Positions 3,099 to 62,748 of a stretch of 64,000 nt of DNA are shown here, in pieces. How positions within the stretch are numbered: the stretch's first letter is position 1; each line of letters opens with the position of its first letter. Source of the stretch: Anaeramoeba ignava BMAN (lineage: Eukaryota > Protista > Anaeramoebae); the NCBI GenBank assembly GCA_028826165.1, contig JAPDFW010000061.1, positions 310,001 through 374,000 of the forward strand. The letters are read 5' to 3'. The notes beneath the pieces are model-generated. The model saw nothing but the letters and a program-made list of their open reading frames with translations, did not search any database and was not told the DNA's origin. The position numbers were made by a program, and so were the translations under genes.

Positions 3099-3208
3099 AA
3101 AGAAATTTTATAAAAATTATATTTTTTTAATTTTTGAAAATAAAATTTTCATTTTTTTTCTTTCATTATTTTCATTATTTTATTTTATAAAACAAAAAAC
3201 AATAACAA

Positions 3209-3849: not shown

Positions 3850-6800
3850 ATGAATATTTGGGAAATTGTTGAACAAAATAATATCCAGTTATTAAAAACC
3901 GTTGATTCAATCCTAATAAAGGATTTAATAAAAGATAAAAAACCCATTTTAAATTTTGCAATTCAAAAACAAGTTTCAAAAGAAATGATTCAATTTTTAA
4001 TTTCAAAAGGAGCAAATCCAAATTCTGTTGATAAAAATAAAAGAAATTCGTTACATTTAGCTTGCCAATACAAGAATCTTGAAGTTATTAAGATTTTAGT
4101 TGAAAAAGGAGTTGATATTAATGCAAAAACAAATAAAAGAGAAACATCTTTACATTTTGCTTGTCAATATAATTCTCTTGAAATTATCAAATATTTAATT
4201 GAAAAAGGAATCAATATGAACATAAAGGACGACAGAATCAAAACTCCTTTCGATTTAGCTAAATATTATAATTCACTCAATTTGATAGATTATCTTGTTC
4301 AAAAAGGAGTCAATATCATTAATACAGAATTGCAAGAAAATCCAATTTTTCCACAATTATTTTATCAATATGAACAAAATCAAAAATGTTTTGAAATTAT
4401 AAAATATTTGATTGAAAAAGGTGCCAATATTAACGCAGAAGATGGAGAAAATAAAACACCTTTGCATTACAGCTGCGAATATTGCTCATTGGAAATTATC
4501 AAATATTTAATTGAAAGCCAATCTGATATTAATAAAAAAGATTTTAGAAATCAAATGCCTTTACATTTAGCTTCTCAATATAATTCATATGAAGTGATAA
4601 AATATTTAGTTGAAAAGGGTGCATGTCGAAGTACTACAAACAAAACAAACGAGCTTCCTTTACACATCGCATGCAAATATCAAAACAACAAAAACTCTTT
4701 GGAAATTATAAAATTGTTGTTAGTAGACAAAACTTATATCAACACCAAAACACAAGGAAATCAAACACCTTTACACTTGGTGTGTCAATTTCAGAATCAA
4801 GATAATGTTGATAAAATTGTTCAATATTTATTTAAAAAAGGAGCAGACATCAATGAAGAAACATATTCAAATGAAACAGTTTTGCATTACGCTTGTCGAA
4901 ATAAACACAAAAATTCATTCGAGATTATCAAATCTCTTCTGCAACATCAAATAAGTGTTACATATCAAAACAACGATCATCAATCACCTTTGCATCTTGC
5001 TTTCTTATATCAACATGAAAAAACCTTTGAAGTTATTAAACTTCTTGTAGAAAAAGGTGCAAATGTAAATTCAAAAATAAAAACGATGAAACTCCTTTAC
5101 ATTTAGCTTGTCAATATATTTCATTCGAAATTATTAAACTTCTTGTAGAAAAAGGTGCAAATGTAAATTCAATAAATAAGAACGATGAAAACCCTTTGCA
5201 TTTAGCTTGCCAATATAATTCATTTGAAAGCATTAAATATCTTGTAGAAAAAGGTGCAAAAATAAATCCAATAAATAAGAACGATGAAAACCCTTTGCAT
5301 TTAGCTTGCCGATATAATTCCTTTCAAAGCATTGAATATCTTGTAGAAAAAGGTGCAAACATAAATGCAAGAACTAAGAATGAAGAAAACCCTTTGCATT
5401 TAGCTTGCCAATATAATTCATTTGAAACTATTAAATATCTTATAGAAAAAGATGCAAATGTAAATGCAAAAAATAAGAATGAAGAAACTCCTTTACATTT
5501 CGGATTAATGAATCATATATCAGAAAATCGACTTGAAATTGCGAAATTATTAGTAAAAAATGGAGCATATATCCTGACTGTAAACAAAAAAAAAGAAACA
5601 TTATTGCATTATTTTTGTAAAAAGAAAGACACTTCATTAGAAATTATAAATTTTTTGATTGAAAATAACATCAGCATTAACGAAAAAAATTATCAAGAAC
5701 AATCACCTTTACATTATGCTTGCTTAAATGAATTGGATCATATTATCAAGCTTCTCATTGAAAAAGGAGCTAATATCAATTCCACAAACAGAAACGGTCA
5801 AACACCACTATATTTTGCTTGTTCCAAAAAAGTTTCAATAGAAAATATCGGATATTTAATTGAAAAAGGAGCAGAAATCAATGCAAAAGATAAATCAAAC
5901 AACCAAACACCTTTGCATTTAGCCTGCATAAATAACAACAAGCAAGCAATTAAATTATTAATAGAAAAAGGAGCTGATCCAGATCCTAAAACTTTCAGAA
6001 ATCAAACACCTCTTCATTTTTTTTGTCAACACAATCACTCTTTTAATGAAGACCAAGAAGCAATTGAAATTGTTAAAATTTTATTTGAAAAAGGAGCTGA
6101 CATTTCCTTCAAAAATAAATTTGGCCAAAATCCTTTTCATTATGCTTGTCAGTCAAATTCATTCCAAATTATCAAATTTATGGTCGAAAAGGGAATTGAT
6201 GTTAATCAGCAAAGCAACAAACATCAATCACCTTTGCATTTACTTTCTCAGAATATTTCCAAAGGATCTTTTCAAATTATAAAATTTTTGGTTGAAAAAG
6301 GAGCTGATATAAAGGCTAAAGATAATCAAAAAAGAAGCATTTTGCATTATTCTTGCCAAAATACAAATGTATATGCTCTTCAAATTATAGAATTTCTTAT
6401 TGGAAAAGGGATTGATATCAATGAAAAAGCAGAAAAAAATCGAACTGCTTTGCATTTTACTTGTATTTATCAATCAGATGAAAATCATTCTTATAAAGTT
6501 CTGAAATATTTAATTGATCATGGAGCTGATGCAAGTATTATGGATAATGGTAATGAAACTGCATTAAGAACTGCCATCTTTAGAAACAATATAAAATCTA
6601 TCAAGTTACTCTTAATGAATGATGGAATTATGTTTGATTTGCATGACACGGAAATTAGAAAAGAAATGATTGAGTTGCTTCCTCAAATTTATTCAATTAA
6701 TGAAGATTTAAACAAGTTTATGAAATTAGATGATAATTTGAAAGATTTCCAAATCAAATCCAATAATTCTTCAATATTCCATGTTCATAAATCATTTCTT

Positions 6801-7514
6801 TTATTAAGATTTGATAATAATCAATCAATTTTGCAAAAATTTATCAACATTTGCTTTCAAAAACCAAATGAAATTGTTCAAATTGCCTTAAATTTTCTTT
6901 ATACAGGATTTCCTGATTTTGATCATTTCCTTCAGAGAGTTCACAATTTGATTGATTATGCTAACAAATCTATTTCTCTGAAAAGGGATTATAAAAAAAA
7001 CATTATTCGTTGGAATCATTTTTTTGATCAAAAAAATCAATTACTTCTTTCAAGAAAGCAACAAATTACCATTGAAAATGAAAAAGATAAAAAACAAAAT
7101 GATGTTATAAATGAGTTTTTCCAAGAAATGGGATTTGATTCAAGTTGGATTAGACTCAAAAAAGGAAGAAGAGGAATATTGAAAGATTTACAAAAATTAT
7201 ATGAAAATGAATCAACAAAAGATTTTACAATAATTTGTGGAGAAGAAGAAAAAGAAATCAAAATTCATAAATTAATATTAATAATAAGAAGTGAATTATA
7301 TAAAGGAATGTTTTTAAGTGTTCAAGATTCATCAAATCAAGTTCATGACTATTCAGGAAAATCATTTGAAACAATAAATCAATTAATTTATTTTCTTTAT
7401 CATGATGAATTTAATGAAAAAGAAATTAATCAAGAAGAATTTGAAGATGTTAAAGATTATTATCAATTAAATGAAAATTCAATAATTGATTTCCTTCTAA
7501 AAGATTATATTTAA
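3850..7514 (+). CDS. Ankyrin-repeat + tandem BTB/POZ protein, copy A1 (one frameshift near 5075)
   Basis: ATG at 3850 (MNIWEIV, like the paralogs); TPLH-type ankyrin repeats; BTB1 (FHVHKSFLLLRF..LNFLYTG); BTB2 (DFTIIC..IKIHKLILIIRSELYKGMF). One A is missing in tcaaaaataa relative to the next repeat. Confidence 0.9.
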
Positions 7515-7533
7515 TCAATAAAAATTAAAATTA

Positions 7534-7555
7534 TTTTTTTCATTTTTTTCATTTT
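7534..7555 (+). promoter_or_regulatory. T-rich TCATTT initiator-like motif (tandem)
   Basis: tttttttcatttttttcatttt in the 63-bp gap before ATG 7578; the same motif precedes most genes. Confidence 0.65.
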
Positions 7556-7577
7556 CTTTTTTCAATTCAATAAAAAA

Positions 7578-10401
7578 ATGAGAGTAATCAAGAAAAATAG
7601 AAAATTTTTTATTGCTTGTCAAAAAAATTCTTTTCAAGAGATTAAAAATTATATTACTCAAGGAATTAATATTAATGCAAAAACAGTGAAAGAAAATGAG
7701 ACAGCTTTACATATAGTTTGTAAAACTCAGAAGCAAGAAACAATGAAAATTATCAAATATTTAATTCAAAACGGAGCAAAAATTAATTCAAAAAATAAAA
7801 AGGGTCAAACACCTTTTCATCTATCATGTCAAAATAATTCAATTCAAGTTGTCATCTTTTTGATTCAAGAAGATGCAAGTTTAGATAAAAAAACAAGTAA
7901 AAAAGAAACCGTTTTGCATTATGCTTGTCAAAATCATGAAAATCCACTTGAAATCATCCAACTATTGGTTGAAAATGATATTGATCTAAATTTAACAACA
8001 AACGATCACCAATCAATTTTGCATTATACTTGCCAATACCAAAAAAATGGAAATTGTCTTGAAATTATCAAATATTTGATTGAAAAAGGAATTGATATTA
8101 ATTCAAAAACTATCCAAAATGAAACATCCTTGCATATAGCTTGCCAATATCAAAAAAGCATCAATTCTTTTGAAATTATAAAATATTTGGTTGAAAATGG
8201 AGTAGATATAAACGTACAAAATAACGATAATGAAACAGCTTTGCATTTATTTTGTCAATATCAACAAAACGAAAATTGTCTTGAAATTATCAAATATTTG
8301 TTTGAAAAAGGGATTAATATTAATTTAAAAAACAAAAACAATGAAACAGTTTTACATTTAGCTTGCAAATATCAATCTTTTCCAATTATACAATATTTTG
8401 TTGAGAAAGGAATTGATATTAATTCCAAAAATATTGATAATGAAACAGCTTTGCATTTAGTTTGCCAATATCAAAAAAATGAAAATTCATTTGAAATTAT
8501 CAAATATTTGTTTGAAAAAGGGATTAATATTAATTTAAAAAACAAAAACAATGAAACAGTTTTACATTTAGCTTGCAAATATCAATCTTTTCCAATTATG
8601 CAATATTTTGTTGAGAAAGGAATTGATATTAATTCCAAAAATATTGATGATGAAACAGTTCTACATTTGATTTGCAAACAAAAAAAATCGTTTGAGATTA
8701 TTAAATTTCTCATTGAAAAAGGAGCTAATATCAATTCAACAAACAAAAGAAATGAAACAGTTTTGCATATTGTTTGTGGACACCATAATGAAGAAAAATT
8801 CATTTGAAGTCATTAAATATTTTGTTGAGAAAGGAGCTGATATTAATTCCAAAAATATTGATGATGAAACAGCTCTACATTTGATTTGCAAACAAAAAAA
8901 TCCTCTTGAGATTATTAAATTTCTTATTGAAAAAGGAGCTAATATTAATTCAACAAACAAAAGAAATGAAACAGTTTTGCATATTGTTTGTGAACACCAT
9001 AATGAAGAAAATTCATTTGAAGTCATTAAATATTTAATTGAAAAAGGAGCTGATATTCATGCTCAGAACCATAAAAAACAGATAGCTTTGCATATCATTT
9101 GTCGTCATCAATCCAAAATTAGCACGTTTGGAATTGCTAAATATTTGATTGAAAAGGGAGCTGATGCTAATTCAAATGCTCAGAATACTAGAAATCCAAC
9201 ACCTTTACTTATAGCTTGCCAATATTATAACAAAGAAAATTCGTATCCAGTAATAAAACTTCTTCTTGAAAATGGTGCTGATGTTAATTCAAAAAACAAA
9301 GACGGTGACACACCTTTACATTTTGCTTGCCAACAAGATTATTCTTTGATTATCAAATATTTGATTAAACAGGGAGCTGATACAAATGCAAAAAACAAAC
9401 AAAATCAAAATCCTTTAAGAATTATCATCCAAAAAAACAATCCAGAAATTATCAAGTTACTCTTAATGAATGATGGAATTATGTTTAATTTACATGACAC
9501 GGAAATTAGAAAAGAAATGATTGAGCTTCTTCCTAAAATTTATTCAATTAATGAGGATTTAAACAAGTTTATGAAATTAGATGATAATTTGAAAGATTTC
9601 CAAATCAAATCCAATAATTCTTCAATATTCCATGTTCACAAATCATTTCTTTTATTAAGATTTGATAATAATCAATCAATTTTGCAAAAATTTATCAACA
9701 TTTGTTTTCAAAGACCAAATGAAATTGTTCAAATTGTTTTAAATTTTCTTTATACAGGATTTCCTGATTTTGATCATTTTCTTCAGAGAGTTCGCAATTT
9801 CGTTGATTATGCTAACAAATATATTTCTCTGAAAAGGGATTATAAAAACAGACAAATTACTTACAAAAAATATAAAAAAGAAAGTAGCAATCTAATCGCT
9901 TTTAGAGAAGAACAAATAAATAACGAAAATCACATTGAAAATGAAAAAGATAAAAAACAAAATGATGTTATAAATGAGTTTTTCCAAGAAATGGGATTTG
10001 ATTCAAGTTGGATTAAATTGAAAAAAGGAAGAAGAGGAATATTGAAAGATTTACAAAAATTATATCAAAATGAATCAACAAAAGATTTTACAATAATTTG
10101 CGGAGAAGAAGAAAAAGAAATTAAAGTTCATAAATTAATATTAATATTAAGAAGTGAATTATTCAAAGGAATGTTTCAATTAAATGTTCAAGATTCATCA
10201 AATCAAGTTCATGACTATTCAGGAAAATCATTTGAAACATTGTACCAATTAATTTTCTTCTTTTATAATGATAGATTTGATAAATCAAAAAAAATTAAAA
10301 AAGAGGAATTCCAAGATATTAAAGATTATTATCAATTAAATGAAAATTTAACAATAGATTTAGTTCTTCAAAAAAAAAATACACAAAAAAAAAAGAAATA
10401 A
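7578..10401 (+). CDS. Ankyrin-BTB-BTB protein, copy A2 (frameshift near 8797)
   Basis: ORFs 7578-8807 and 8692-10401 join by removing one A in gaagaaaaatt (compare the duplicate repeat at about 9001). Confidence 0.9.
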
Positions 10402-10455: not shown

Positions 10456-13400
10456 ATGGATATTCGGGAAATCATCCAGAAAAATAATATTCAATTATTA
10501 AAAGAACTTAAAACAATCCCAATAAATCATTTAGGAGGAAATAGAGAACCAATTTTAAATTTTGCAATAGAAAAACAAGTTTCAAAGGAAATAATTGAAT
10601 TTTTAATTGCAAAAGGAGCAACTCCAAATTCTGTTGATAAATATAACAGAAATTCACTACACATTGCAATCAAAAATAAATCACCAATCCAAATTATCAA
10701 TCTTTTAGTTGAAAAAGGAGTTGATATAAATGCAAAAACAAAAAAAAGAGAAACACCTTTACATTTTGCTTGTGAGTATAATTCAAGAATTGAAATTATC
10801 AAAATTTTAGTTGAAAAAAAGGTTAATATCAATGCACAAGCTTATAAAATGAAAACTCCCCTTCATTTTGTTTTCCAAAGTAAACGCAAAAATTCACATG
10901 AAATGGTCAAATATTTGATCGAAAAAGGGGCTTCTATTGATTCTATAAACAGAAAATCAGAAACACTTTTGCATTTATCCTGTAAATATAACTCATTCGA
11001 AATTACTAAATTTCTAATTGAAAACAGAGCTGATATTGAGTTAAAAGATTACCAAAGTAACTCTCCTATACATATATCTTGCAAAAACAATTCATTCAAA
11101 ATAGTAGATTTATTAATTAAAAATGGAGTTGATATTGATTCAAGAAACAAAGGAAAGAAAACAGCTTTACATATCGCTTTTAAAAATGGATTTACTGAAA
11201 TTCTTAAATTATTAATTGAAAAAGGTGCTAATATTAATTTAAAAGATAATCAAGACGAAACAATTTTACATTATGCATGCAAATCAAATTTGTCATTGGA
11301 AATTATCGAGTATTTGATCGAAAAAGGTGCTGATATAAATCTGAAAAATAAAGATGAAGATACACCTTTACATTTTTTATCCAAATCAGAGCAAAAAGAA
11401 AATTTATTTGAAATTATTAAATTTCTGATTGAAAAAGGAGCTGATATAAATATTAAAAATATAGACGGTCAAAATCCATTGCATTTAGCTTGTCAATACC
11501 AATCATTCGAAATTATTGAATATTTCATTTCCAAAGGAATTGATATTAACTCAAAAAACAAATTTGATGAAAATCCATTGCATTTAGCTTGTCAATACCA
11601 ATCATTCGAAATTATTGAATATTTCATTTCCAAAGGAATAGATATTAACTCAAAAAACAAATTTGATGAAAATCCATTGCATTTAGCTTGCCAATACCAA
11701 TCATTTGAAATTATTAAATATCTCATTTACAAAGGAATAGATATTAACCCAAAAAACAAATTTGGGCAAACTCCTTTGCATTTCGCTTCCCAATATAATT
11801 CGTTTGAAATTATTAAATATCTCATTTACAAAGGAATTGATGTTAACGCAAAAAGTAAATTTGGGCAAACTCCTTTGCATTTCGCTTCCCAATATAATTC
11901 GTTTGAAGTTATCAAATTTCTTGTTGAGAATGGGGCAGAGATAAATATACAAAATGAATACAATGAAACATCTTTACATTTAGTTTGTCAGTATAATTCA
12001 TTCCAAATTATCAAATTTCTTGTTGAAAAAGGAGCTAATGTCAATTCAAAAATCATTAGATCAATGATATATCCTTTAGATCTTGTTTGTCAATACCAAC
12101 ATCACAAATTGCTTGAAATCATCAAATCAATAGTTGAAAAAAATGCAGATATTAATAACAAAGACTCACAAAACAGAACTCCGTTACATAAACTCTGTCG
12201 ATATCAAAATGATGAAAATTCATTTGAAGTTATCAAATATTTGATTGAAAATGGTGCAGATGTCAATGCACTAACATATAATCAAGAATCTCCTTTGCAT
12301 TTAATTTGCGAATATCAACAAAACCAAAATTCTTTTGAAATTATCAAATTTTTGTTTCAAAAGGTTCTAATCTTAATTGTAAAACGAAAGCAGGAAAGCA
12401 AACTCCTTTACATTTGGCCTGTAAATTTCAAAAAAACTTAGAAAACTCATTCCAAATCATTAAATTTCTTATTGATAATGGAGCAGATATTAAAGAAAAA
12501 AATAGCTTCGGTCAAACACCGTTAAAAATTGCAATTCAATATGAAAATATAAAACGCAATTAAAGTGATATTAATGAATGATGGAATTATGTTTGATTTG
12601 CATAGCACACAAATCCCAAAAGAAATGGTTGAGTTGCTTCCTCAAATTTATTCAATTAATGAAGATTTAAACAAGTTTATGAAATCAGATGATAATTTCA
12701 AAGATTTCCAAATCAAATCCAATAATTCTTCAATATTCCATGTTCACAAATCATTTCTTTTATTAAGATTTGATAATAATCAATCAATTTTGCAAAAATT
12801 TATCAACATTTGCTTTCAAAAGACCAAATGAAATTGTTCAAATTGCCTTAAATTTTCTTTATACAGGATTTCCTGATTTCGATCATTTCCTTCCAAGCAT
12901 AAACAAGTTAATTAATTATAAAAATCAATTAAATAACCTTATAGCACAATATAATTCAAGTTTCTTATCTATATTTAATTATTTTGATAAAAGAGATGAA
13001 ATTGAAAAATTAAAGCAAATTGAAATTGATAAATATGAAAATGAAAATAAAGTTATGGAAGAGTTTTTCCAAGAAATGGAATTTGATTCGAATTGGATTG
13101 AATTGAAAAAGGGAAGAAGAGGAATATTGAAAGATTTACAAAAATTATATCAAAATGAATCAACAAAAGATTTTACAATAATTTGTGGAGAAGAAGAAAA
13201 AGAAATTAAAGTTCATAAATTAATATTAATAATAAGAAGTGAATTATTCAAAGGAATGTTTTTAAGTGTTCAAGATTCATCAAATCAAGTTCATGATTAT
13301 TCAGGAAAATCATTTGAAACATTAAATCAATTAATTTATTTTCTTTATCATGATGAATTTAATGAAAAAGAAATTAATCAAGAAGAATTCGAAGATGTTA

Positions 13401-13462
13401 AAGATTATTATCAATTAAATGAAAATTCTATAATTGATTTCCTTTTAAAAGATTTTATTTAA
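10456..13462 (+). CDS. Ankyrin-BTB-BTB protein, copy A3 (frameshifts near 12360, 12553, 12820)
   Basis: Ankyrin array then BTB-BTB nearly identical to A1/A2; all three breaks are in A-runs. Confidence 0.88.
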
Positions 13463-13481
13463 TCAATAAAATTTAAATTTA

Positions 13482-13503
13482 TTTTTTTCATTTTTTTCAT
13501 TTT
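13482..13503 (+). promoter_or_regulatory. TCATTT initiator-like motif upstream of the cyanophycinase
   Basis: The intergenic sequence is nearly identical to 7515-7577. Confidence 0.65.
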
Positions 13504-13524
13504 CTTTTTTAATTCAATAAAAAA

Positions 13525-14912
13525 ATGAACATTTGGAAAATAATCTCTTTATTGATAGTCATTCAATTTATCATGGCCACAGCAACAGAACCATTAGTTT
13601 TAATCGGAGGAGCATTAGCAGATGAAAACGAAGCAATTTATCAGCAAATTATCAATTTTGGAGGAGGAAATCAAAAAGCAAGAATTGGAGTGATAACTGC
13701 TGGATCAGATCCTCAAGATGCAAAAGCAAATGCAGAATACTATTGTAATCTTTTCAGAGGTTATGGTGTTTACGATTGTTCTTGGATTCCTATTGATTTA
13801 GATCATAAAGAAAATAATCAAGATCCACAAGTTCTTTCTTTAATAGCTCAAATGACAGCTTTTTTTTTTGTTTGTTTTTGCCAATTCAAAATTCATTTTA
13901 AATTTTAAAATAAAAATTTAACATTTTAAAATTAAATATGAAAATTAGGGAGGAGGAGATCAAGAAAGAATTAGTGAATGCTTTTTTAATTCACACGAAG
14001 ACTCTCCTGCATTATCTTTAATCCGTAAACTTCATACAGAACAAAATGTTGTGATTTCTGGTTCAAGTGCAGGAACTACAATAATGCAAGGAAATTATAT
14101 GGTTACTGGAGGTGAAAGTTATAATGCAGTAACTCAAGACAAACCTCATTCTTATATCGATGATAACTATCCTGATGATCTTAGTTATGATCCTTATCCT
14201 GGGTTTAACATTTTCACTTTAGGTTTACTTGATACTCATTTTTCTCAAAGAGGTAAACAGCGAGAATTCCTTTTTCATTAACATCAAAAAAAAAGAAAAT
14301 TGAATCAAAAAAATTTCCCTTTTTTTTTGGTCTTTAGGAAGAGAAGGAAGAATGATTAGATTGTTAGATTTTTCAAGAATTTCTTATGGATTCGGAATTG
14401 ATGAAAATACTGCTTTAGTTATTAATGGAACCAAAGGAAAAGTTATAGGAGAAGGAGGAGTTTGGGTATTCAACATGAAAAAAATAAATGAAAAAAAAGA
14501 TGAATTGAGGGCAAGCGATTGGGAAATTGATAATGTTCTTGGATCTTATTTAACACTTGATGATGAATATGACTTCACAACAAATTCAATCACTTTTGCA
14601 AGTTGGAAGAGTTCTTTATATGGAAGAGAAATTCATAATCATCCAATGACACCTACTGATGATATTTTTAGTAGTCCCAATAACTCAGAATTAAAAGACA
14701 GAAGAAACCCAAATGAAATGGAAATTGTTTCTTGTGATCTTTTTGATAGTAAAGGATCTGATACTTATGGATTGACTTATGAAGATGATCCTACTTATGA
14801 AGTTGATTTGACAAAAGATAGAGATCAAGGAGCTGATGGTTATCAAGGATATTTTAATGACATTAATTATTATGCCTTCGAAAATTTAAAAATTGATATT
14901 TTCCGTTATTAA
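13525..14912 (+). CDS. Secreted cyanophycinase-like serine peptidase (S51); exons 13525-13869, 13949-14252, 14338-14912
   Basis: Spliced product contains LVLIGGA, FFFGGGDQ, GSSAG (nucleophile Ser), DTHFSQRGREGR (His) and GFGIDENTAL (Glu). Both GT-AG introns restore conserved motifs in frame. Hydrophobic N-terminal signal peptide. Confidence 0.9.
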
Positions 14913-14989
14913 AGCAAAAATTATTTTTTTCATTTTTTTGCTTTTCATTTTTTTTCAATTCAATTCAATAAAAAAAAAATTTTCGAAGA

Positions 14990-17900
14990 ATGAACATTTG
15001 GAAAATAATTGAAGAAAACAATATCCAAAAATTAAAAGAAATTAAAACAATTCAAGAAAATGATTTAGAAACAAATAAAAAACCAATTTTACATTTTGCA
15101 ATAGAAAAACAAGTTTCAAAAGAAATGATTGAAATTTTAATTTCAAAAGGAGCAAATATAAATTCTATTGATAAAAAAAGAAGAAATTCATTACATATTG
15201 CAATTAAAAATAATTCACCAATCCAAATTATCAAATATTTAATTTTGAAAGGAATTGATATTAATTCAAAAACAAATCAAGATGAAACTGCTTTACATAT
15301 TGCTTGTCAAAATCAAAATATTTCAATTAAAGTTATCAAATTTTTAATTTCTAAAGGAATTGATATTAATTCAACAACAAATCAAAATAAAACCGCTTTA
15401 CATATTGCTTGCCAAAATCCAAATATTTCGATTAAAGTCATAAAACTTTTAATTTCTAAAGGAATTGATATTAATTCAAAAACAAATGATGACAAAACAG
15501 TTTTACATTTTGCTTGCTTAAATCGAAATTCAATCATTTCATTTCAAATTATCAAATATTTACTTTCAAAAGAAATTGATATTAATACAAAAACAAAATA
15601 TCAAAATAAAACTGCTTTGCATTATGCTTGTCAGTATAATTCATTCCAAATTATCAAATTTTTAATTTCAAAAGGAATTGATATTAATTCAAAAACAAAT
15701 CAAAATGAAACTGCTTTGCACTTTGCTTATTTAAATAACAATCCAAATATTTCAATTCAAATTATTGAATATTTAATTTTGAAAGGAATTTATATTAATT
15801 CAGAATCAGATAAAAACAAAGAAATTTTGAATTTTGCTTGCCAAAACACATCAATTCAAATTATCAAAAATTTAATTTCATCAGGAATTGATATTAATTC
15901 AAAAACAAAAGACCAAAATCGAACAGCTTTGCATGTTGCTTGCCAAAATAATTCAGAAATTGAGACTATTAAATATTTAATTTCAAATGGAATTGATATT
16001 AATTCAAAAACATATCAAAATGAAACTGCTTTGCATATTGCTTGTTCAAATCCAAATATTTCAACTAAAATTATTGAATATTTACTTTCAAATGGAATTG
16101 ATATTAATTCAAAAACAAACCAAAATGAAAATGCTTTGCATTATGCTTGCCAATATAATCCAATTCAAATTATTAAATATTTAATTTCAAAAGGAATTGA
16201 TATTAATTCAAAAACAAACCAAAATGAAACTGCTTTGCATATTGCTTGCTTAAATTACAACATTTCAATTCAAATTATCGAATATTTACTTTCAAAAGGA
16301 ATTAATATTAATTCAAAAACAAACCATAATCAAACAGCTTTGCATTTTGCTTGTAGAAACTCTAATATTAAAATTGAAATTATTGAATTTTTAATTTCAA
16401 AAGGAATTAATATCAATTCAAAAACAAACCAAAATGAAACAGCTTTGCATTTTGCTTGTTTAAATCCTAATATTAAAATTGATATTATTGAATTTTTAAT
16501 TTCCAAAGGAATAGATATTAATTCAAAAACAAATCATAAACAAACAGCTTTGCATTTTGCTTGTAGAAACTCTAATATTAAAATTGAAATTATTGAATTT
16601 TTAATTTCAAAAGGAATTAATATCAATTCAAAAACAAACCAAAATGAAACTGCTTTGCACTTTGCTTATTTAAATAACAATCCAAATATTTCAATTCAAA
16701 TTATTGAATATTTAATTTTGAAAGGAATTTATATTAATTCAGAATCAGATAAAAACAAAGAAATTTTGAATTTTGTTTGCCAAAAACACATCAATTCAAA
16801 TTATCAAAAATTTAATTTCAAAAACTGAGACAATTAAAAATCAAACTTTGTTACATATTGCTTGCTCAAATTCTAATATTAAAATCGATACTATTGAATA
16901 TTTACTTTCAAAAGGAATTAATATTAATTCAAAAACAAATCAAAACGAAACTCCTTTACATATTGCTTGTTTAAATCCAAATATTAAAATCGATATTATT
17001 GAATATTTAATTTCAAAAGGAATTGATATTAATTCAAAAACATATCAAAATGAAACATTTTTACATATTTATTTGAAAAATCCAAATATCAAGTTTGATA
17101 TTATTGAATATTTAATTTCAAAAGGAATTGATATTAATTCAAAAACAAATCAAAATGAAACTCCTTTACATATTTATTTGAAAAATCCAAATATTAAAAT
17201 TGATATTATTGAATATTTAATTTCAAAAGGAATTGATATTAATTCAAAAACAAATCAAAATGAAACATTTTTACATCTTTATTTGAAAAATCCGAATATT
17301 TCACTTGATATTATTGAATATTTAATTTCAAAAGGAATTGATACTAATTCAAAAACAAATCAAAATGAAACTCCTTTACATATTTTTCTGAAAAATCCAA
17401 ATATTAAAATTGAAATTATTGAATATTTAATTTCAAAAGGAATTGATATTAATTCAAAAACATATCAAAATGAAACATTTTTACATCTTTATTTGAAAAA
17501 TCCTAATATTTCACTTGATATTATTGAATATTTAATTTCGAAAGGAATTGATATTAATTCAAAAACAAAAGATCAAAAACAAAATTCTTTGCATATTGCT
17601 TGTTCAAATCCAAATATTTCATTTGAAATTGTTGAATATTTAATTTTGAAAGGAATTACTGTTAATTCAAAAACAATTGATAATGAAACAGCTCTACATT
17701 ATTTTTGTGTAAATCCAAATGTTTCTATTGATATTATTAAATATTTAATTTATAAAGGAATTGATATTAATTCAAAAACAATATATGAAAATCAAACTGC
17801 TTTACATATTGCTTGTTCAAATCCAAACATTTCATTCGAAATTATTGAATACTTAATCTATAAAGGAATTGATATTAATACAAGAACAATTCAAAATAAA

Positions 17901-20580
17901 ACAGCTTTACATTTTGCTTGCCAGTATAACGATCTTGAAATTATTGAATATTTAATTTCGAAAGGAATTGATATTAATGGAAAAACAGATGACGAGGAAA
18001 CAATTTTGCATTATGCTTGTAAAAATGCAAGGTTTTCAATTGAAATTATTGAATATTTAATTTCAAAAGGAATAATTATTAACTCCAAAACAAATGAAAA
18101 TGAAACAGTTCTACATTATGCTTGCTTAAATCCAAATATTTCTGTTGAAATAATTGAATATTTACTTACAAATGGAATCAATATTGATTCAACAAGAAAA
18201 GAAAAAGAAACAATCTTACACTATGCTTGCCAAAATCCAAATATTTCAATCCAAGTAATCGACTATTTAATTTCCAAAGGAATTTATATCCATTCAAAAA
18301 CATATAACAATCAAACAGGCCTACATATTGCTTGCCAAAATTCAAATATTTCATCCCAAATTATTGAATTTTTAATTTTGAAAGGAATTGATATTAATTC
18401 AAAAACAATATATGAAAATGAAACAGCTTTACATATTGCTTGTCAAAATCCAAATATTTCATTCCAAATTATTAAATATTTAATCTCAAAAGGAATTGAT
18501 ATTAATTCAAAAACAAATCAAAATGAAACAGCTTTACATATTGCTTGTCAAAATCCAAATATTTCATTCCAAATTATTAAATATTTAATCTCAAAAGGAA
18601 CTGATATTAATTCAAAAACAAATCAAAATGAAACAGCTTTACATATTGCTTGTCAAAATTCAAATATTTCATTCCAAATTATTGAAATTTTAATCTCAAA
18701 AGGAATTGATATTAATTCAAAAACAAATAAAAACGAAAATGCTTTACATATTGCTTGCCAAAACCCAAATATTTCATTTCAAATTATTGAATTTTTAATT
18801 TTGAAAGGAACTGATATTAATTCAAAAACAAATCAAAATGAAAATACTTTACATATTGCTTGTAAAAATCCAAATATTTCATTTCAAATTATTGAATTTT
18901 TAATTTTGAAAGGAATTGATATTAATTCAAAAACAAATCAAAATGAAAATGCTTTACATATTGCTTGTCAAAATCCAAATATTTCATTTCAAATCATTGA
19001 ATTTTTAATTTTGAAAGGAATTAATATTAATTCAAAAACAAATCAAAATGAAACAGCTTTACATATTGCTTGCCAAAACTCAAATATTTCATTTCAAATT
19101 ATTGAATTTTTAATTTTGAAAGGAATTGATATTAATTCAAAAACAAATCAAAACGAAAATGCTTTACATATTGCTTGTAAAAATCCAAATATTTCATTTC
19201 AAATTATTGAATTTTTGATTTTGAAAGGAATTAATATTAATTCAAAAACAAATCAAAATGAAACAGCTTTACATATTGCTTGTAAAAATCCAAATATTTC
19301 ATTTCAAATTATTGAATATTTAATTTCCAAAGGAATTGATATTAATTCAAAAACCAATAAAAAAGAAAATGCTTTACATATTGCTTGCCAAAAATCCAAA
19401 TATTTCATTCCAAATTATCGAATATTTAATTTTGAAAGGAATTAATAATATTTCAAAAACCAATAAAAAAGAAAATGCTTTACATATTGCTTGTCAAAAT
19501 CCAAATATTTCATTCCAAATTATCGAATATTTAATTTCAAAAGGAATTGATATTAATTCAAAAACAAATCAAAACGAAAATGCTTTACATATTGCTTGTA
19601 AAAATCCAAACATTTCCCTCAAAATTATTGAATATTTAATTTCCAAAGGAATTAATATTAATTCAGAAACAGATGAATATGAAACTCCTCTTTCACTTTC
19701 TGTAGAAAATAAAAATTCAACATTAATCAAATTATTGATCATCAATGATGCAAGCATTTTAGGTTTGAAAATACAACCAACAACTCAACTAATTATTGAT
19801 ATCTTCTCAAGAATTTATTCAATTAATGAAGATTTAAACAAATTATTAAATTCAAACGAAAATGAAAGTGAAAATTTTTCAGATTTCCCAATCGAATCAA
19901 ATGATGGTTTCAAATTCAAAGTTCATTCATTAATTTTATTGGCAAGATTTGATAACAATTATACAATTTTACATAAATTCATCAGTAAATGTAAACAAAA
20001 ACCACAAAAAGATGTTCAAGCTGCTTTAAATTTCTTATATACTGGATTTGATGATTTTGAAAAATTCATTCAAAAATTCAACAAATATATCCAACAATTC
20101 CAGAAACCAAAAGAAAGGATGTTCAAATTTGAAAAAAAGGAAATTAACGATGAAACAATTTTCAAAGAAATTGGATTTGATTCAAAATGGATTAAATCGA
20201 AAAAAGGGATAAAAGGAATATTGAAAGATTTCCATAAATTATATGAAAATGAATCAACAAAAGATTTTACAATAATTTGTGGAGAAGAAGAAAAGGGAAT
20301 TAAAGTTCATAAATTAATATTAATAATAAGAAGCGAATTATTCAAAGGAATGTTTTTAAGTGTTCAAGACTCATCAAATCAAGTTCATGACTATTCAGGA
20401 AAATCATTTGAAACATTAAATCAATTAATTTATTTTCTTTATCATGATGAATTTAATTGCGAATCGAAAGATGTTAATTACAAAATTATTAAAGAATTGG
20501 AGGATATCAAAGGTTATTATTTATTAAATCAAAATTCAACAATTGATTTCCTTTTAAAAGATTTAAAAGAATTTAATTAA
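14990..20580 (+). CDS. Very long ankyrin-BTB-BTB protein, copy A4 (roughly 45 repeats; frameshifts near 16785, 19393)
   Basis: Homogenised 35-aa repeats (NETALHIACQNPNISFQIIEFLILKGIDINSKTNQ) then BTB-BTB; both breaks are an extra A in caaaaa. Confidence 0.88.
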
Positions 20581-23083: not shown

Positions 23084-24027
23084 TTAATTTTTGAAAGAAA
23101 ATCCAAGAAAATTAAATGCTTCATTAATTGATCTCTGTTCAACATATTGAAATTGAAAACCTGAAGCAAGAATTGATTCTTCTGTTTGTTTTTCGTTTTG
23201 TTCTTGTTTATCCCTAATTAAATCAAATCAAATCAAATTAAATTAAATCAATCAAATTAAATCAAATCAAATCAATTTAAAATCGAATCAATTTAAAATA
23301 TTCAATTCAATTCAATATTCAAATTATTTCAAATTATTTCAAATTATTTCAAATTATTTCAAATTATTTCAAATTATTTTAATAAAATTAAATTAATTGA
23401 ATAAATACATCCCAGTATTTAAAGTAACTAAATTCTTTTTTGGTATTTCTTGATGCTCTTTTGGAACCAAATTTTGAGGTTTATAATCAAATTTTTTTGG
23501 TTCTTTTTCTTTAGGTTTTTTTGAATGAATTTTTGTATTTATTATTGCTTGAGCTTGTTGATTTCTACGTTGTCTTCTTTTATTTTTAATTTCTTCTTCT
23601 TGTCTTTTCATTTCTTCTCTATTTCTATTAACTTTTTCTTTTTCTTCTTCTCTTTTTTTCTTTACTTTTTGTTTTTCTAAAATCTTTAAAAAATTTTGAG
23701 AAAATTCGAATTTAAACTTAAATTTAAATTAAATTTTTCAATAAAAATCAATCCAAACTTGTTTTTTTTCATTTTCAATTATTATTTTCTCATTTTCCTT
23801 TCTGTAATTTGCAATTTTTTTATTTAATTCTTCTGGTTCGATTGCATTTGTTTTTTGATAAACTATTTTTATCCTTAAATAAAATGAAGAAAATTTTTTA
23901 AACAGAAAAAAATACTTATTTCTTCAAGTTCTTCTAAATAATCATTATATTCTCTTAAATTTGAAAAATTATCTTTTGTTTTATTAAAAGTTTTAAAAAG
24001 ATCTCTTCTTATTTTTGTTTCATTCAT
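23084..24027 (-). CDS. MNAT1: CDK-activating kinase assembly factor MAT1 lacking the N-terminal RING; exons 24027-23916, 23862-23759, 23683-23409, 23213-23084
   Basis: Spliced protein MNETKIRRDLFKTFNKTKDNFSNLREYNDYLEELEEII matches the MAT1 core (IRK..YNK.E.DF.SLREYNDFLEEVEEI). C-terminal LASGF..VEQRSINEAF matches the MAT1 tail. Three in-phase GT-AG introns. Confidence 0.85.
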
Positions 24028-37087: not shown

Positions 37088-37260
37088 AAAGAATCTCAAT
37101 TAATTGTGATTAAAGCATATTTTTTTTTTCTTTTTTTTTCTCCTTTCGATTTTTAATGGTTATTTTAATAATTTCTTTTTTTTTTTTTAATAAAAAATGT
37201 CTAATTAAAAAATTTTTTTCATTTTTTTCTTTTCATTTTTTTATAATTTAAAAAATAAAA

Positions 37261-45054: not shown

Positions 45055-45423
45055 TTGGATCTTATTATTTTATTTCGTTAATTGTTTTTTATAGATTCTT
45101 ATTAAAAAAATTTTTTTTTTTTGTTTTTTTCTTTGTTTTGTTTTTAAATTTTAAATTAAAAATTGCTTTTTTATTTTTCTTGTTGTTTTTAATTATTTTT
45201 AGGGATATAAAAAGAAGATAAAAAGAAGAAGAAAGAAAAAAAGAAAAAAGATAAAAAGAAGAAAAAAAATGAAAATTAAAAAAATTAAAATAAAAAAATT
45301 AAAATTAAAAAAAATGGCAAATAATAAAAAAGAAAATTTAATTTAAAAAAAAAAAAAGGAGAATTTTTAATTTTTTTATTTTTTTCTCCTTTTTTTAATT
45401 AATTTTTTTTTTTTAATTTTTAA

Positions 45424-45456
45424 TTTTTTTTCATTTTTTTCATTTTTTTTCATTTT
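45424..45456 (+). promoter_or_regulatory. Triple TCATTT initiator-like motif before RPN6
   Basis: (tttttttcatt)x3 ending 4 nt before ATG 45461. Confidence 0.7.
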
Positions 45457-45460
45457 AAAA

Positions 45461-51544: not shown

Positions 51545-51658
51545 AATGTTAAACCTAAATTTCAAAGAGATTTTTTTTTTATTTTTTTTTTTTGAAAAAA
51601 TTAAATTTAAAATTTTTTCATTTTTTTCTTTTTTTCATTTTTTCTTCATTTAAAAAAA

Positions 51659-53187: not shown

Positions 53188-53454
53188 ACAAATTATTAAT
53201 TGAAAACAAAAACAAAAAAGAAAAAAGAAAAAAAAAAATTTTTTTAATTATTTTTAAATTAAAAATTTCTTCAGATTTAAAAAGCTCGATATATTTTTTT
53301 TCAACAAATAATTAAAATGTTGTTTTTATTTTATTCAGAGTTGTTTTATAATCATCATTAGAAATTTTATTTTATATTATTTTAATTAATTGAAAAATAA
53401 AAAAATGAAAAAAATATTTTTAAATTTTTTCATTTTTTTTCATTTTTCTTATAA

Positions 53455-56400: not shown

Positions 56401-56959
56401 TACAGGATTTTGCGATTTTGAAACTATTGATCAAAAATTGGATCAACAATTGAAACAAAACATTCAAAATGCTTTGAAAACAAAGAAATTTGTTATAGTC
56501 AAAAAAAATGAAAATGGGAAATTAATTTTTGAAGGTGTTGAAGAAAAACAGAATAAAAAGTTAGAAAATTTTTTCAAAGAAATTGGATTAGATTCAAAAT
56601 GGATTAAATCAAAAAAAGGAAGAAAAGGAATATTAAATGATTTCCATTGTTTATATGAAGAAAAATACATAAAAAAAGATTTTACGATAATTTGTGAAGA
56701 AAGAGAAATTAAAGTTCATAAATTAATATTAATATTAAGAAGTGAATTATTTAAAGGAATGTTTTTATCAGTAACTAATGACAATTCAAATCAAGTTCAT
56801 GATTATTCAGGGAAATCATTTGAATCACTGAATCAATTAATTTATTTTTTTTATCATGACAATTTTGAAGAAGGGAAATTAAATCAATGTAATATTGAAG
56901 AACTTGAAGATGCAAAAGAATTTTATCAATTAAATCACAACTTGAATTTTGATTATTAA
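53455..56959 (+). CDS. Ankyrin-BTB-BTB protein, copy A6 (frameshift near 54420; C-terminus shortened)
   Basis: MNIWE start, ankyrin array with 99-bp near-perfect repeats, BTB-BTB; extra A in gagaaaaggt. Confidence 0.88.
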
Positions 56960-57260
56960 ATTTATTAATTAATAAATCAAATAAATTTGGATTTGTTTGA
57001 TTTAATTGAAAATAATCAATTCCAATTTGAATTTCATCAATAATTTCTTGTGTAATTTGAATTTCATCTTTTAATTTGATTTGAATAAATCCAATATTCA
57101 AATATTTGAAATGATTTATTACTTAATTCACTATAATCTGTAACTTTATTTGAAGTATCATTTGTTACAGATAAAAACATTCCTTGATATAATTCACTTC
57201 TCATTATTAATATTAATTTGGGAAATTTATATTGTTTTTCTTTTCTTTCAATTATAAAAT
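56945..57260 (-). pseudogene. 3' fragment of an RCC1-BTB-BTB gene (BTB2 only)
   Basis: Near-identical to 60877-61190 (KQYKFPKLILIMRSELY.GMFLSVT..NPNLFDLLINKFNNQN); similarity stops abruptly at about 57260. Confidence 0.85.
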
Positions 57261-60860: not shown

Positions 60861-60874
60861 TTTTGATTTTAATT

Positions 60875-62647
60875 TTAATTTTGATTATTAAATTTATTAA
60901 TTAATAAATCAAATAAATTTGGATTTGTTTGATTTAATTGAAAATAATCAATTCCAATTTGAATTTCATCAATAATTTCTTGTGTAATTTCAATTTCTTC
61001 TTTAATTTGATTTGAATAAATCCAATATTCAAATATTTGAAATGATTTATTACTTAATTCACTATAATCTGTAACTTTATTAGATTTATCTTCAGTTACA
61101 GATAAAAACATTCCTCGATATAATTCACTTCTCATTATTAATATTAATTTAGGAAATTTATATTGTTTTTCTTTTCTTTCAATAATAAAATCTTTTTCAT
61201 TTTCATTTTCATTTAAATAAATTCTTTTCATTGTTTCTTCAATTTTTTCATTTGAATTTATAATTTCTTTAATTTCAGAATATAATTTTGGATTTATTAT
61301 TCTGTTTGAATAAATCATTTCAAATATTTGATTTGATTCTTTAATTGATTTTTTTGAAATAATTTCTTGAAGTTTTTCAATTTGATTTTGATTTTGATCT
61401 AATCTATATTTCAATATTAATTTATGAGCTTCAATTATTTCTCCATTTTCGGTTTTAAATGAAATATCACAAAATTCTTTTCTTCTAAATAATTTTATCA
61501 AATCTTCTTCAAGATTGGAAAAAGAAGGAAGAGAATAATAAATAAATGAATTGTTAAATCCACAAGAAATATGATAATTAGAAATATTTTCATTAAATCT
61601 TAATTTAGGAAGTTCAATTTGAATTGGAATTAATTGATTTTCTTTTGTATTTTCAGTTCCTAATTCCCCATATTCATTAATTCCAAATCCAATTAATTTT
61701 GAATTGGATGACAAAATCAAAGTTTGTCTAAATCCACAAGAAAAATCAAGAATATCATCATCATTTTCAAATAAAGATGATTTGATTTCAGTAAATTCAT
61801 AAGTATCTTCATTTCTGCCAAGTCCATTATATTGGTAATTTCCACATGAATAAAGTTTTCTTTTTGGATTTTGATTTTCATTTTCAATCATCATTATTGA
61901 ATAATAAATTCCACATTTAATATCAATTATTTTGCCTTTTGGAATATTTTGGATTTTGGTTAATTTTTGGATTTTCATTTCTTTTCTTGATTCTCCTAAT
62001 CCAACTTGACCATAATCATTATATCCGCATCCAAATAATTCTTGATTTGAATTCAAAAGAAAAATATGATAAGATATAATTCCTGAAAATATTTTAGAAA
62101 CATTTTTCATCATTAAAATTGGTTTTTCTGTTTTTGGAAGTGTTTTAGAATCAAAACCAAGTTGACCATTAAAATTTGAACCAATTCCATAAACATTTTG
62201 ATTTGAAGTTAATAAGTAAATTGTAAAACCTCCAGAAACAATATCTTGAATTATTCTATCATTTTTATCTTCAATTAATGATGAAATATTGATAAATTCT
62301 TTTGGATTATTTGGATTAATATTTTCTCCTTTGGCAAATACATTTCCTTCTATTGTTAAAATAGCTTCATTTCGATAACCAACAGTTACTTTTTGAATAT
62401 TTTCTTCAATTTGAATTTTTTCAGGATTTTGATTTGAATAATCTTCATTTAAATATTCTATTGCTTTTCCATTTTCAAAAAGGAAAATTATTGCAAAATT
62501 TGAAGTTGAAATTTGTTTAATTTGTTTTTCATTTTCATTTTCATTTTCATTTTCAAATTTAAATTGAATTGGTTTTGTTATTTCATTTGGTTCATTTTTG
62601 ATAAGTTTTGGATTTTGATTTTGACCAAAAAATAAAATTTCATTCAT
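60875..62647 (-). CDS. RCC1-repeat + tandem BTB protein
   Basis: RCC1 blades (VYGIGSNFNGQLG, GCGYNDYGQVGLG, IKCGIYYS, GFGINEYGELG); BTB1 FCDISF..IEAHKLILKYR; BTB2 LILIMRSELYRGMFLSV. Confidence 0.9.
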   Translation of the reverse strand: MNEILFFGQNQNPKLIKNEPNEITKPIQFKFENENENENEKQIKQISTSNFAIIFLFENGKAIEYLNEDYSNQNPEKIQIEENIQKVTVGYRNEAILTIEGNVFAKGENINPNNPKEFINISSLIEDKNDRIIQDIVSGGFTIYLLTSNQNVYGIGSNFNGQLGFDSKTLPKTEKPILMMKNVSKIFSGIISYHIFLLNSNQELFGCGYNDYGQVGLGESRKEMKIQKLTKIQNIPKGKIIDIKCGIYYSIMMIENENQNPKRKLYSCGNYQYNGLGRNEDTYEFTEIKSSLFENDDDILDFSCGFRQTLILSSNSKLIGFGINEYGELGTENTKENQLIPIQIELPKLRFNENISNYHISCGFNNSFIYYSLPSFSNLEEDLIKLFRRKEFCDISFKTENGEIIEAHKLILKYRLDQNQNQIEKLQEIISKKSIKESNQIFEMIYSNRIINPKLYSEIKEIINSNEKIEETMKRIYLNENENEKDFIIERKEKQYKFPKLILIMRSELYRGMFLSVTEDKSNKVTDYSELSNKSFQIFEYWIYSNQIKEEIEITQEIIDEIQIGIDYFQLNQTNPNLFDLLINKFNNQN

Positions 62648-62657
62648 TTTTGAAAAG

Positions 62658-62674
62658 AAAAAAAATGAAAAAAA
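62658..62674 (-). promoter_or_regulatory. TCATTT motif on the minus strand before RCC1-BTB
   Basis: aaaaaaaatgaaaaaaa (reverse complement of T7CAT8) about 10 nt upstream of ATG 62647, so the motif follows gene orientation. Confidence 0.65.
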
Positions 62675-62748
62675 TAAATTTTTAATTTTAATTTTAATTT
62701 TAATTTTAATTTTAATTTTGGAAAAGAAAGAAATATGAAAAATAGTTT

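What the first reader, a model, noticed from the sequence alone, without database searches (positions are those of the whole stretch)
13463..15010. Cyanophycinase appears to have captured an ankyrin gene's promoter and first codons
Seen: the spacer before the cyanophycinase (13463-13524) is nearly identical to the spacer before ankyrin gene A2 (7515-7577). Its first 20 coding bases, atgaacatttggaaaataat (MNIWKII), are identical to the first 20 of the next ankyrin gene A4 at 14990. MNIW is the family start (also in A1 and A6). Here those residues form the n-region of a signal peptide. Inference: a foreign gene was domesticated by recombining into a slot of the tandem array, gaining a promoter, start codon and part of a secretion signal. 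Later gene conversion is an alternative explanation.
Basis: partly seen in the sequence, partly recalled or inferred. Interest (0 to 1): 0.78.

Follow-up and report, generated by a model that had tools for sequence, protein, structure and literature searches.

The report
Cyanophycinase carries an ankyrin gene's start
In the amoeba Anaeramoeba ignava, a spliced cyanophycinase gene sits inside a row of ankyrin-BTB genes between two copies of the row's spacer plus the neighbour's first 20 coding bases, which likely records a long-resident gene moving into the row and likely taking over the neighbour's promoter and the front of its own predicted signal peptide.

Summary
Observation confirmed; interpretation half right. 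The window is Anaeramoeba ignava. The gene 13525-14912 has two introns, appears as spliced contigs and keeps the CphE catalytic residues. Its first 20 coding bases equal those of neighbour A4 and nothing else in the window; one contig with no differences spans both copies. The match is the end of a ~70-bp direct repeat (spacer + 20 bases) on both sides of the enzyme's body: the signature of an insertion with target duplication in front of A4. The spacer's likeness to the A2 spacer is less telling: it ends a ~1 kb block shared by the upstream BTB tails. 'Foreign gene domesticated here' is not supported: A. flamelloides has a single orthologue (50% identical) with its own signal-like start (MNLFF) among non-ankyrin neighbours, the pair does not nest in bacteria, and codon use is host-like. 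So: an old gene relocated into the array, with its promoter and first seven codons replaced. A neat, well-preserved chimeric-gene case of a known kind.

The parts
12546..13462 (+). 3' part of upstream ankyrin-BTB gene A3 (BTB tail), 97% like the A1 tail and 96% like the A5 tail
   Evidence: (PF00651)
13463..13524 (+). 62-nt array spacer S: likely 3' end of A3 and promoter/5' UTR of the cyanophycinase; 95% like the spacer before A2
13475..13544 (+). left copy of the ~70-bp direct repeat (spacer + first 20 coding bases)
13514..13518 (+). HCAHW (Trichomonas Inr-like) word; the spliced contig of run X3 begins at its A (13516); weak hint of a start site
13525..13544 (+). 20 coding bases (MNIWKII) identical to the start of A4; front of the predicted signal peptide
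13525..13869 (+). cyanophycinase exon 1
13870..13948 (+). intron 1 (GT...AG, 79 nt)
13949..14252 (+). exon 2, with catalytic Ser155 (GSSAG) and His212
14253..14337 (+). intron 2 (GT...AG, 85 nt)
14338..14912 (+). exon 3 to the stop codon, with Glu239
14913..14989 (+). 77-nt array-type spacer S': 3' UTR of the cyanophycinase (spliced contig runs to 14985) and likely promoter of A4
14917..15009 (+). right copy of the direct repeat, with 23 nt of insertions
14990..20580 (+). downstream ankyrin-BTB gene A4 (read in three overlapping frames in this assembly), starts MNIWKII
6588..7581 (+). A1 BTB tail + spacer + first 4 bases of A2: the sister block that explains the spacer likeness

Best explanation
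A single-copy, two-intron cyanophycinase gene with an orthologue outside ankyrin arrays in A. flamelloides sits in A. ignava between two copies of a ~70-bp stretch made of the array spacer and the first 20 coding bases of ankyrin gene A4, which likely arose when the gene's body was inserted as DNA at codon 7 of A4 with that stretch duplicated. Shown: the repeat, the introns, spliced contigs, the orthologue's different start and neighbourhood. Inferred: the left copy now supplies promoter, start codon and MNIWKII; the right copy gave A4 its start back; the in-frame join survived because MNIWKII (with a lysine where the family has glutamate) can stand in as the front of the enzyme's existing signal peptide; the shared ATG-AA start may have served as microhomology; the left spacer was later kept alike with the A1 spacer by conversion among BTB tails, while the right one gathered insertions. 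The product is predicted to be a secreted or lysosomal CphE-type serine peptidase that cuts cyanophycin of bacterial prey into beta-Asp-Arg, as before the move.
For: Direct repeat on both flanks, 66-67 of 70 bases; the enzyme keeps none of its own flanks: array-type spacer begins about 4 nt after its stop. The downstream spacer's two best matches among 6123 T-rich 70-nt windows, after itself, are the spacers before A2 (80.5) and before the enzyme (72.5). 20-mer unique to the adjacent gene; A1, A3, A6 and the nearest outside paralogue P0258 have E where A4 and the enzyme have K. Introns argue for a DNA-level move. Orthologues P0002/P0122 begin MNLF and lie between a PTHR25465 gene and two ubiquitin hydrolases in both A. 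flamelloides strains. Catalytic S155, H212, E239 and binding residues Q120, D210, T211, R216, R218, R221 match the CphE pattern given in PMC3235067; 47% identity to CPHE_PSEAG.
Against: The spacer part of the repeat is low-complexity, and a non-array upstream region at 37201 scores 71.0, close to the enzyme's own 72.5; T-rich TTTTCA-type leaders precede unrelated genes too; the 12-mer shared by the three spacers is not rare by count (3 found, 23 of 100 shuffles reach 3). A. flamelloides is only 50% identical, so it cannot show the ancestral A. ignava locus or start. The 20 bases are perfect while the two spacers differ by 3-4 substitutions and 23 inserted bases, which fits later conversion as well. 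The shared lysine could have arisen in the enzyme and been copied into A4. No whole genome was held, so other copies of the 20-mer elsewhere were not counted.
Confidence: 0.58

Rival explanations
1. The enzyme reached this spot by some other route (or the array grew around it), and short conversion or template-switch events between neighbouring 5' ends later copied the 20 bases and spacer between it and A4, in either direction.
For: The array is visibly homogenised: BTB tails of A1, A3 and A5 are 96-97% alike while their 5' parts are not. The 20 bases are perfect though the spacers have diverged. Both orthologues already start MN, giving a seed. Lysine at position 5 suits a signal peptide more than the family's glutamate.
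Against: Conversion needs prior homology; the only homology between the two genes is this repeat, so its origin still needs an insertion or fusion. Both flanks of the enzyme are array-type.
Confidence: 0.2
2. A deletion fused the first 20 bases of a since-lost tandem twin of A4 to a cyanophycinase that already lay just upstream of A4.
For: Gives the same end product; tandem neighbours are often each other's closest copies; A1, A3 and A4 starts are 81-82% alike over 180 nt.
Against: Does not by itself explain why the spacer after the enzyme's stop is also an array spacer. No remnant of a twin was seen in the self-comparison.
Confidence: 0.13
3. A bacterial gene was captured directly into the array slot and thereby first gained a host promoter, start codon and secretion signal.
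For: Named bacterial homologues score higher (up to 47% identity) than named non-Anaeramoeba eukaryotic ones (35-40%); the family is absent from the eight other genomes in the paper's table; A. ignava has many transferred genes (PMC11550330).
Against: Best hit is the A. flamelloides orthologue; the two form a clade outside the named bacterial branch; two introns and host-like GC3; bacterial homologues have their own leaders. Any transfer is older than the split of the two species.
Confidence: 0.05
4. The match is chance or an assembly chimera.
For: The assembly has single-base frame breaks in every ankyrin gene looked at; no listed contig bridges the A3 stop and the enzyme with 31 letters on each side; the runs may include the sample the window came from.
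Against: Contig 13481-15109 in X2 has no differences and spans both copies; spliced contigs in X3 (other study) run 13516-14985 and include the 20 bases. Chance of the 17 bases after ATG under the window's codon-position composition is about 6e-10.
Confidence: 0.02

Closest known systems
Targeting-presequence capture from other genes (rice rps11-1 from atp2, Arabidopsis sdh3 from hsp70, carrot rps10 from hsp22; as summarised in PMC2631504, passages seen)
   Same: A gene carries 5' coding sequence copied from an unrelated host gene at the front of its targeting peptide.
   Different: There the donor part was itself a targeting signal given to a gene that lacked one; here only seven codons from a cytosolic-type ankyrin start replace the front of an existing signal-like leader, and donor and recipient are neighbours with the duplicated junction still visible.
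   Same: A coding region comes under another gene's promoter and first codons through a duplication-type rearrangement.
   Different: Not retroposed (two introns kept); single copy, so no parental copy remains; the host is a tandem ankyrin-BTB array in a metamonad.
Extracellular cyanophycinase CphE (Pseudomonas anguilliseptica CPHE_PSEAG, P. alcaligenes CphEal; PMC3235067 passages), peptidase family S51
   Same: Length about 410-420 aa, N-terminal leader, Ser-His-Glu triad and the Gln/Asp/Thr/Arg/Arg/Arg binding set at the same spacing; 47% identity.
   Different: Eukaryotic, two introns, ankyrin-derived start; activity and secretion untested.

Membership tests
Peptidase S51 / CphE-type cyanophycinase | Match to family profiles | tested here: met
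   PF03575 38.1 bits against cut-off 23.9; TIGR02069 125.1 bits, just under its 126.6 cut-off; hits to solved cyanophycinases 3en0, 7uqw, 7uqv
Peptidase S51 / CphE-type cyanophycinase | Ser (GxSxG)-His-Glu triad and cyanophycin-binding Gln, Asp, three Arg | tested here: met
   S155, H212, E239, Q120, D210, T211, R216, R218, R221 against the residues named in PMC3235067
Peptidase S51 / CphE-type cyanophycinase | Cleavable N-terminal secretion signal | tested here: inconclusive
   Hydrophobic stretch at about residues 6-17 followed by A-T-A; no predictor or experiment
Peptidase S51 / CphE-type cyanophycinase | Releases beta-Asp-Arg from cyanophycin | not testable with these tools
   Needs an enzyme assay
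Chimeric gene with captured 5' end | 5' sequence traces to an unrelated gene, body to another family | tested here: met
   20 bases identical to A4, spacer of array type; 0 of 248 homologues start MNIW
Chimeric gene with captured 5' end | Fused form is transcribed from the captured region | tested here: inconclusive
   Spliced contig includes the 20 bases and begins at 13516 inside the spacer, but contigs cannot fix a start site
Chimeric gene with captured 5' end | Unfused ancestral state seen in a close outgroup or an empty site | tested here: inconclusive
   A. flamelloides shows a different start and locus but is too distant to give the ancestral A. ignava state
Recently transferred bacterial gene | Nested among bacteria, absent from relatives, no introns, foreign composition | tested here: not met
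Retrocopy (target-primed insertion) | Introns lost, poly(A) remnant, short target duplication | tested here: not met
   Two introns present; duplication about 70 bp. Whether the introns predate the move was not testable.
Integron-like cassette array | Dedicated recombinase and recombination sites; several unrelated cassettes in slots | not tested
   No genome held; only one unrelated gene among the five ankyrin-BTB genes of this array; no integrase noticed among the window's ORFs, not searched by profile

The most novel reading that the evidence does not exclude
The ankyrin-BTB arrays of A. ignava act as landing pads: their short spacers serve as both the end of one gene and the promoter of the next, and recombination repeatedly drops unrelated genes, trimmed to almost exactly their coding region, into these slots, rewiring their expression and leader peptides. 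This locus would be one of many such swaps across the genome.
Probability: 0.12. Interest if true: 0.75.

Novelty: new member of a known kind. Interest (0 to 1): 0.42.

Why it matters
It is an unusually legible record of how a gene's promoter, start codon and leader can be replaced in one step: both junctions fall within a few bases of the coding limits and the donor is next door. It suggests that seven codons of a cytosolic repeat protein can stand in for a signal n-region, which is easy to test. If such swaps are common in the ankyrin-BTB arrays, they would offer a route by which Anaeramoeba, rich in transferred genes, rewires them; this one case does not show that, because the enzyme is older than the event.

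Tried and rejected
No whole genome was available, so no genome-wide count of the 20-mer or of similar swaps. Pfam on single exons found nothing; the full protein was needed. A search with A4's first 70 residues returned only 2 proteins of 58 candidates, too weak to census the family's starts. Exact look-ups of three ankyrin ORFs failed because the ORFs are frame-broken. The enzyme's last 60 coding bases align in frame with the BTB tails, tempting as a 3' recombination guide, but 48 of 716 control windows score as well against A1 and 139 of 716 against A3, and the A. flamelloides C-terminus scores the same at protein level: rejected as evidence. The 12-mer shared by three spacers is not significant by count. 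No RNA holder was listed as such; X3 and X4 are taken as cDNA only because their contigs skip both introns. Depth over 13530-13593 came from one contig per run, but the tool did not lay A4's own 20-base match in X1, so this says nothing on other short copies. Ten look-ups for names of near homologues named only P0258 to a species, so the unnamed tree rows have no taxonomy. The paper's transfer tables (file 15) hold no cyanophycin term or locus tag, but hold none of the neighbouring tags either: uninformative. Paper searches for promoter capture + chimeric gene + tandem duplication + signal peptide, and for presequence acquisition with five terms, gave 0 papers. Earlier-findings look-ups gave nothing. 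No structure prediction or AU test was run.

Full report
Setting. The first exon of the gene at 13525 matches, at 100%, a 407-residue protein named cyanophycinase of Anaeramoeba ignava (P0001, KAJ5076378.1), so the window is a eukaryotic, about 22% GC genome. The gene lies fourth in a head-to-tail row: ankyrin-BTB genes A1 (ATG 3850), A2 (7578), A3 (10456), the enzyme (13525-14912), A4 (14990), A5 (20631). The ankyrin ORFs are broken by single-base frame changes; contigs of three runs lack one base at 12822, at an A3 break, so these are likely assembly errors.

The observation. The spacer before the enzyme matches the spacer before A2 at 60 of 63 columns. The first 20 coding bases occur at 13525 and 14990 only, with no further match at up to 2 mismatches and 0 of 100 shuffles reaching two; the chance of the 17 bases after ATG under codon-position composition is about 6e-10. 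A1, A3 and A6 differ at 4, 5 and 6 of the 20 positions. The feature is not an assembly chimera as far as could be tested: one contig of run X2 covers 13481-15109 without a difference, and X1 covers it in two overlapping pieces. The join from the A3 stop into the spacer is covered by short exact pieces (13425-13477, 13448-13503), none with 31 letters on both sides; these runs may include the window's own sample.

Gene structure and expression. Contigs of X3 (a second study) and X4 skip 13870-13948 and 14253-14337, both GT-AG; the spliced frame equals P0001. The X3 contig runs from 13516 to 14985. Position 13516 is the A of a TCAAT word, 9 nt before the ATG, which fits the HCAHW initiator used for Trichomonas vaginalis in PMC7370421 (passages seen); contig ends are only a weak hint, and such words occur within 30 nt of 12 of 13 starts looked at, with no chance control. 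The 3' end stops 4 nt before A4's ATG, so the 77-nt spacer is both this gene's 3' UTR and the likely promoter of A4.

What the spacer likeness means. The A2-like spacer is the tail of a 997-column, 88% block that is mostly the BTB end of the upstream gene; identity is 54-59 of 60 per block up to ATGA and then stops. BTB ends of A1, A3 and A5 are 96-97% alike. So the spacer travels with the upstream gene, and T-rich TTTTCA leaders also precede unrelated genes. By itself it shows only that the enzyme occupies an array slot. Among 6123 T-rich windows its best matches after itself are the spacers before A2 (80.5) and the enzyme (72.5), though a non-array leader at 37201 follows at 71.0. The enzyme's body, from the last base of codon 7 to about 4 nt after the stop, is thus bracketed by a ~70-bp direct repeat of array sequence.

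Is it foreign? The best homologue is the A. flamelloides cyanophycinase, 50% identical. In supplementary file 14 of PMC11550330 (rows found by search, cells cut at 400 characters) the family PTHR36175 has one gene in each Anaeramoeba genome (M0811_06377, M0812_11920, M0813_10474) and none in eight other genomes. Neighbouring tags in A. ignava are an AN1 zinc finger (06372), an ankyrin family (06375), MAT1 (06380) and Furry (06381), which fits this window (5 of the 6 tags asked were not found in the cut cells). In A. flamelloides, 5 of 6 and 4 of 5 neighbouring tags asked were found, none in an ankyrin family: PTHR25465 on one side, two ubiquitin hydrolases on the other, then PTHR13585 and MTHFR; 11923 and 10476 were not found. 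Both orthologues start MNLF with their own hydrophobic leader. Of 248 Met-starting homologues held, 14 start MN and 0 MNIW. A FastTree of 115 rows (26 close relatives and rows under 380 residues left out) and an IQ-TREE quick tree of 49 chosen rows join the Anaeramoeba proteins (0.985; SH-aLRT 99); in the latter all 11 named bacterial rows lie on one side of a branch (93) without them, and their own position is unresolved. The trees are unrooted and no AU test was run, so an ancient transfer is not excluded; named bacterial hits do score above named other eukaryotes. GC3 is 0.15, within the host range 0.10-0.19. The gene therefore predates the species split, and the array event replaced an existing 5' end.

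What it encodes. PF03575 passes its cut-off, TIGR02069 falls 1.5 bits short, three solved cyanophycinases are hit, and S155, H212, E239, Q120, D210, T211, R216, R218 and R221 match the CphE residues listed in PMC3235067 (passages seen). CphE is the extracellular type (PMC10206079, passages). Secretion and activity on prey cyanophycin are inferred.

Mechanism. Most likely (0.58) a DNA-level insertion or single crossover placed the gene's body at codon 7 of A4 and duplicated spacer plus 20 bases; selection kept the in-frame join because MNIWKII can head the existing leader. A4 and the enzyme share K5 where A1, A3, A6 and the nearest outside paralogue P0258 have E; this may be a pre-adaptation in A4 or a change copied back from the enzyme. 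Rivals: later conversion between neighbours (0.2), deletion-fusion with a lost twin of A4 (0.13), direct capture of a foreign gene (0.05), artefact (0.02). An in-frame likeness between the enzyme's C-terminus and BTB tails was not above background.

Novelty. Capture of a 5' end from an unrelated gene is a known kind of event (PMC2631504, passages; jingwei, Sdic and Cit+ recalled). I found no description of this locus: the main text of PMC11550330 has no cyanophycin, ankyrin or BTB term, and searches for Anaeramoeba with cyanophycinase (either term), ankyrin or BTB listed nothing on it by title and abstract; those listed papers were not read, and the paper's main supplementary PDF was too large to read and may bear on the gene's origin. 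Interest 0.42: real, tidy and testable, but one case, and the domestication story does not hold. The bolder reading, arrays as recurrent landing pads, needs a genome-wide census (probability 0.12).

Noticed in passing
window 14913-14989: The spliced contig of the enzyme runs to 14985, over the whole presumed promoter of A4 and to within 4 nt of its ATG; the 50-95 nt array spacers seem to be 3' UTR and promoter at once.
   Followed up: partly
window 3134-3208, 45386-45460, 51584-51658, 53380-53454, 62648-62722: T-rich leaders with repeated TTTTCA words precede unrelated genes; possible genome-wide initiator-like core promoter akin to the Trichomonas Inr. No chance control.
   Followed up: partly
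window 5106, 8807, 12441, 12822, 16828, 19445, 22319, 54429: Every ankyrin-BTB gene looked at has one or more single-base frame breaks without an intron; likely assembly errors.
   Followed up: partly
window 13145-13479 versus 60871-61216 and 56939-57246: The BTB tail is shared (69-70%) with minus-strand genes including an RCC1-like BTB gene, so one tail is joined to different front ends; summed contig depth over 13149-13255 is far above single-copy level, hinting at a very large family.
   Followed up: no
window 14842-14912: The enzyme's last codons resemble the BTB tail's last codons in frame, but not above background.
   Followed up: yes
proteins P0078, P0079, P0090, P0110, P0115, P0118, P0119: Full-length CphE-like proteins with leaders occur in Willaertia, molluscs, a hemichordate and a copepod; six animal rows group together. 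A eukaryotic secreted cyanophycinase-like family seems little discussed (listing only).
   Followed up: no
window 13870-13875: Intron 1 begins GTTTGT directly after a run of ten T; intron 2 begins GTAAAC.
   Followed up: no
window 23380-23700 (- strand) and 24131 onward: A short minus-strand, lysine-rich gene (likely MAT1 by the paper's tag order) and an intron-rich Furry-like gene close the array on the right.
   Followed up: no
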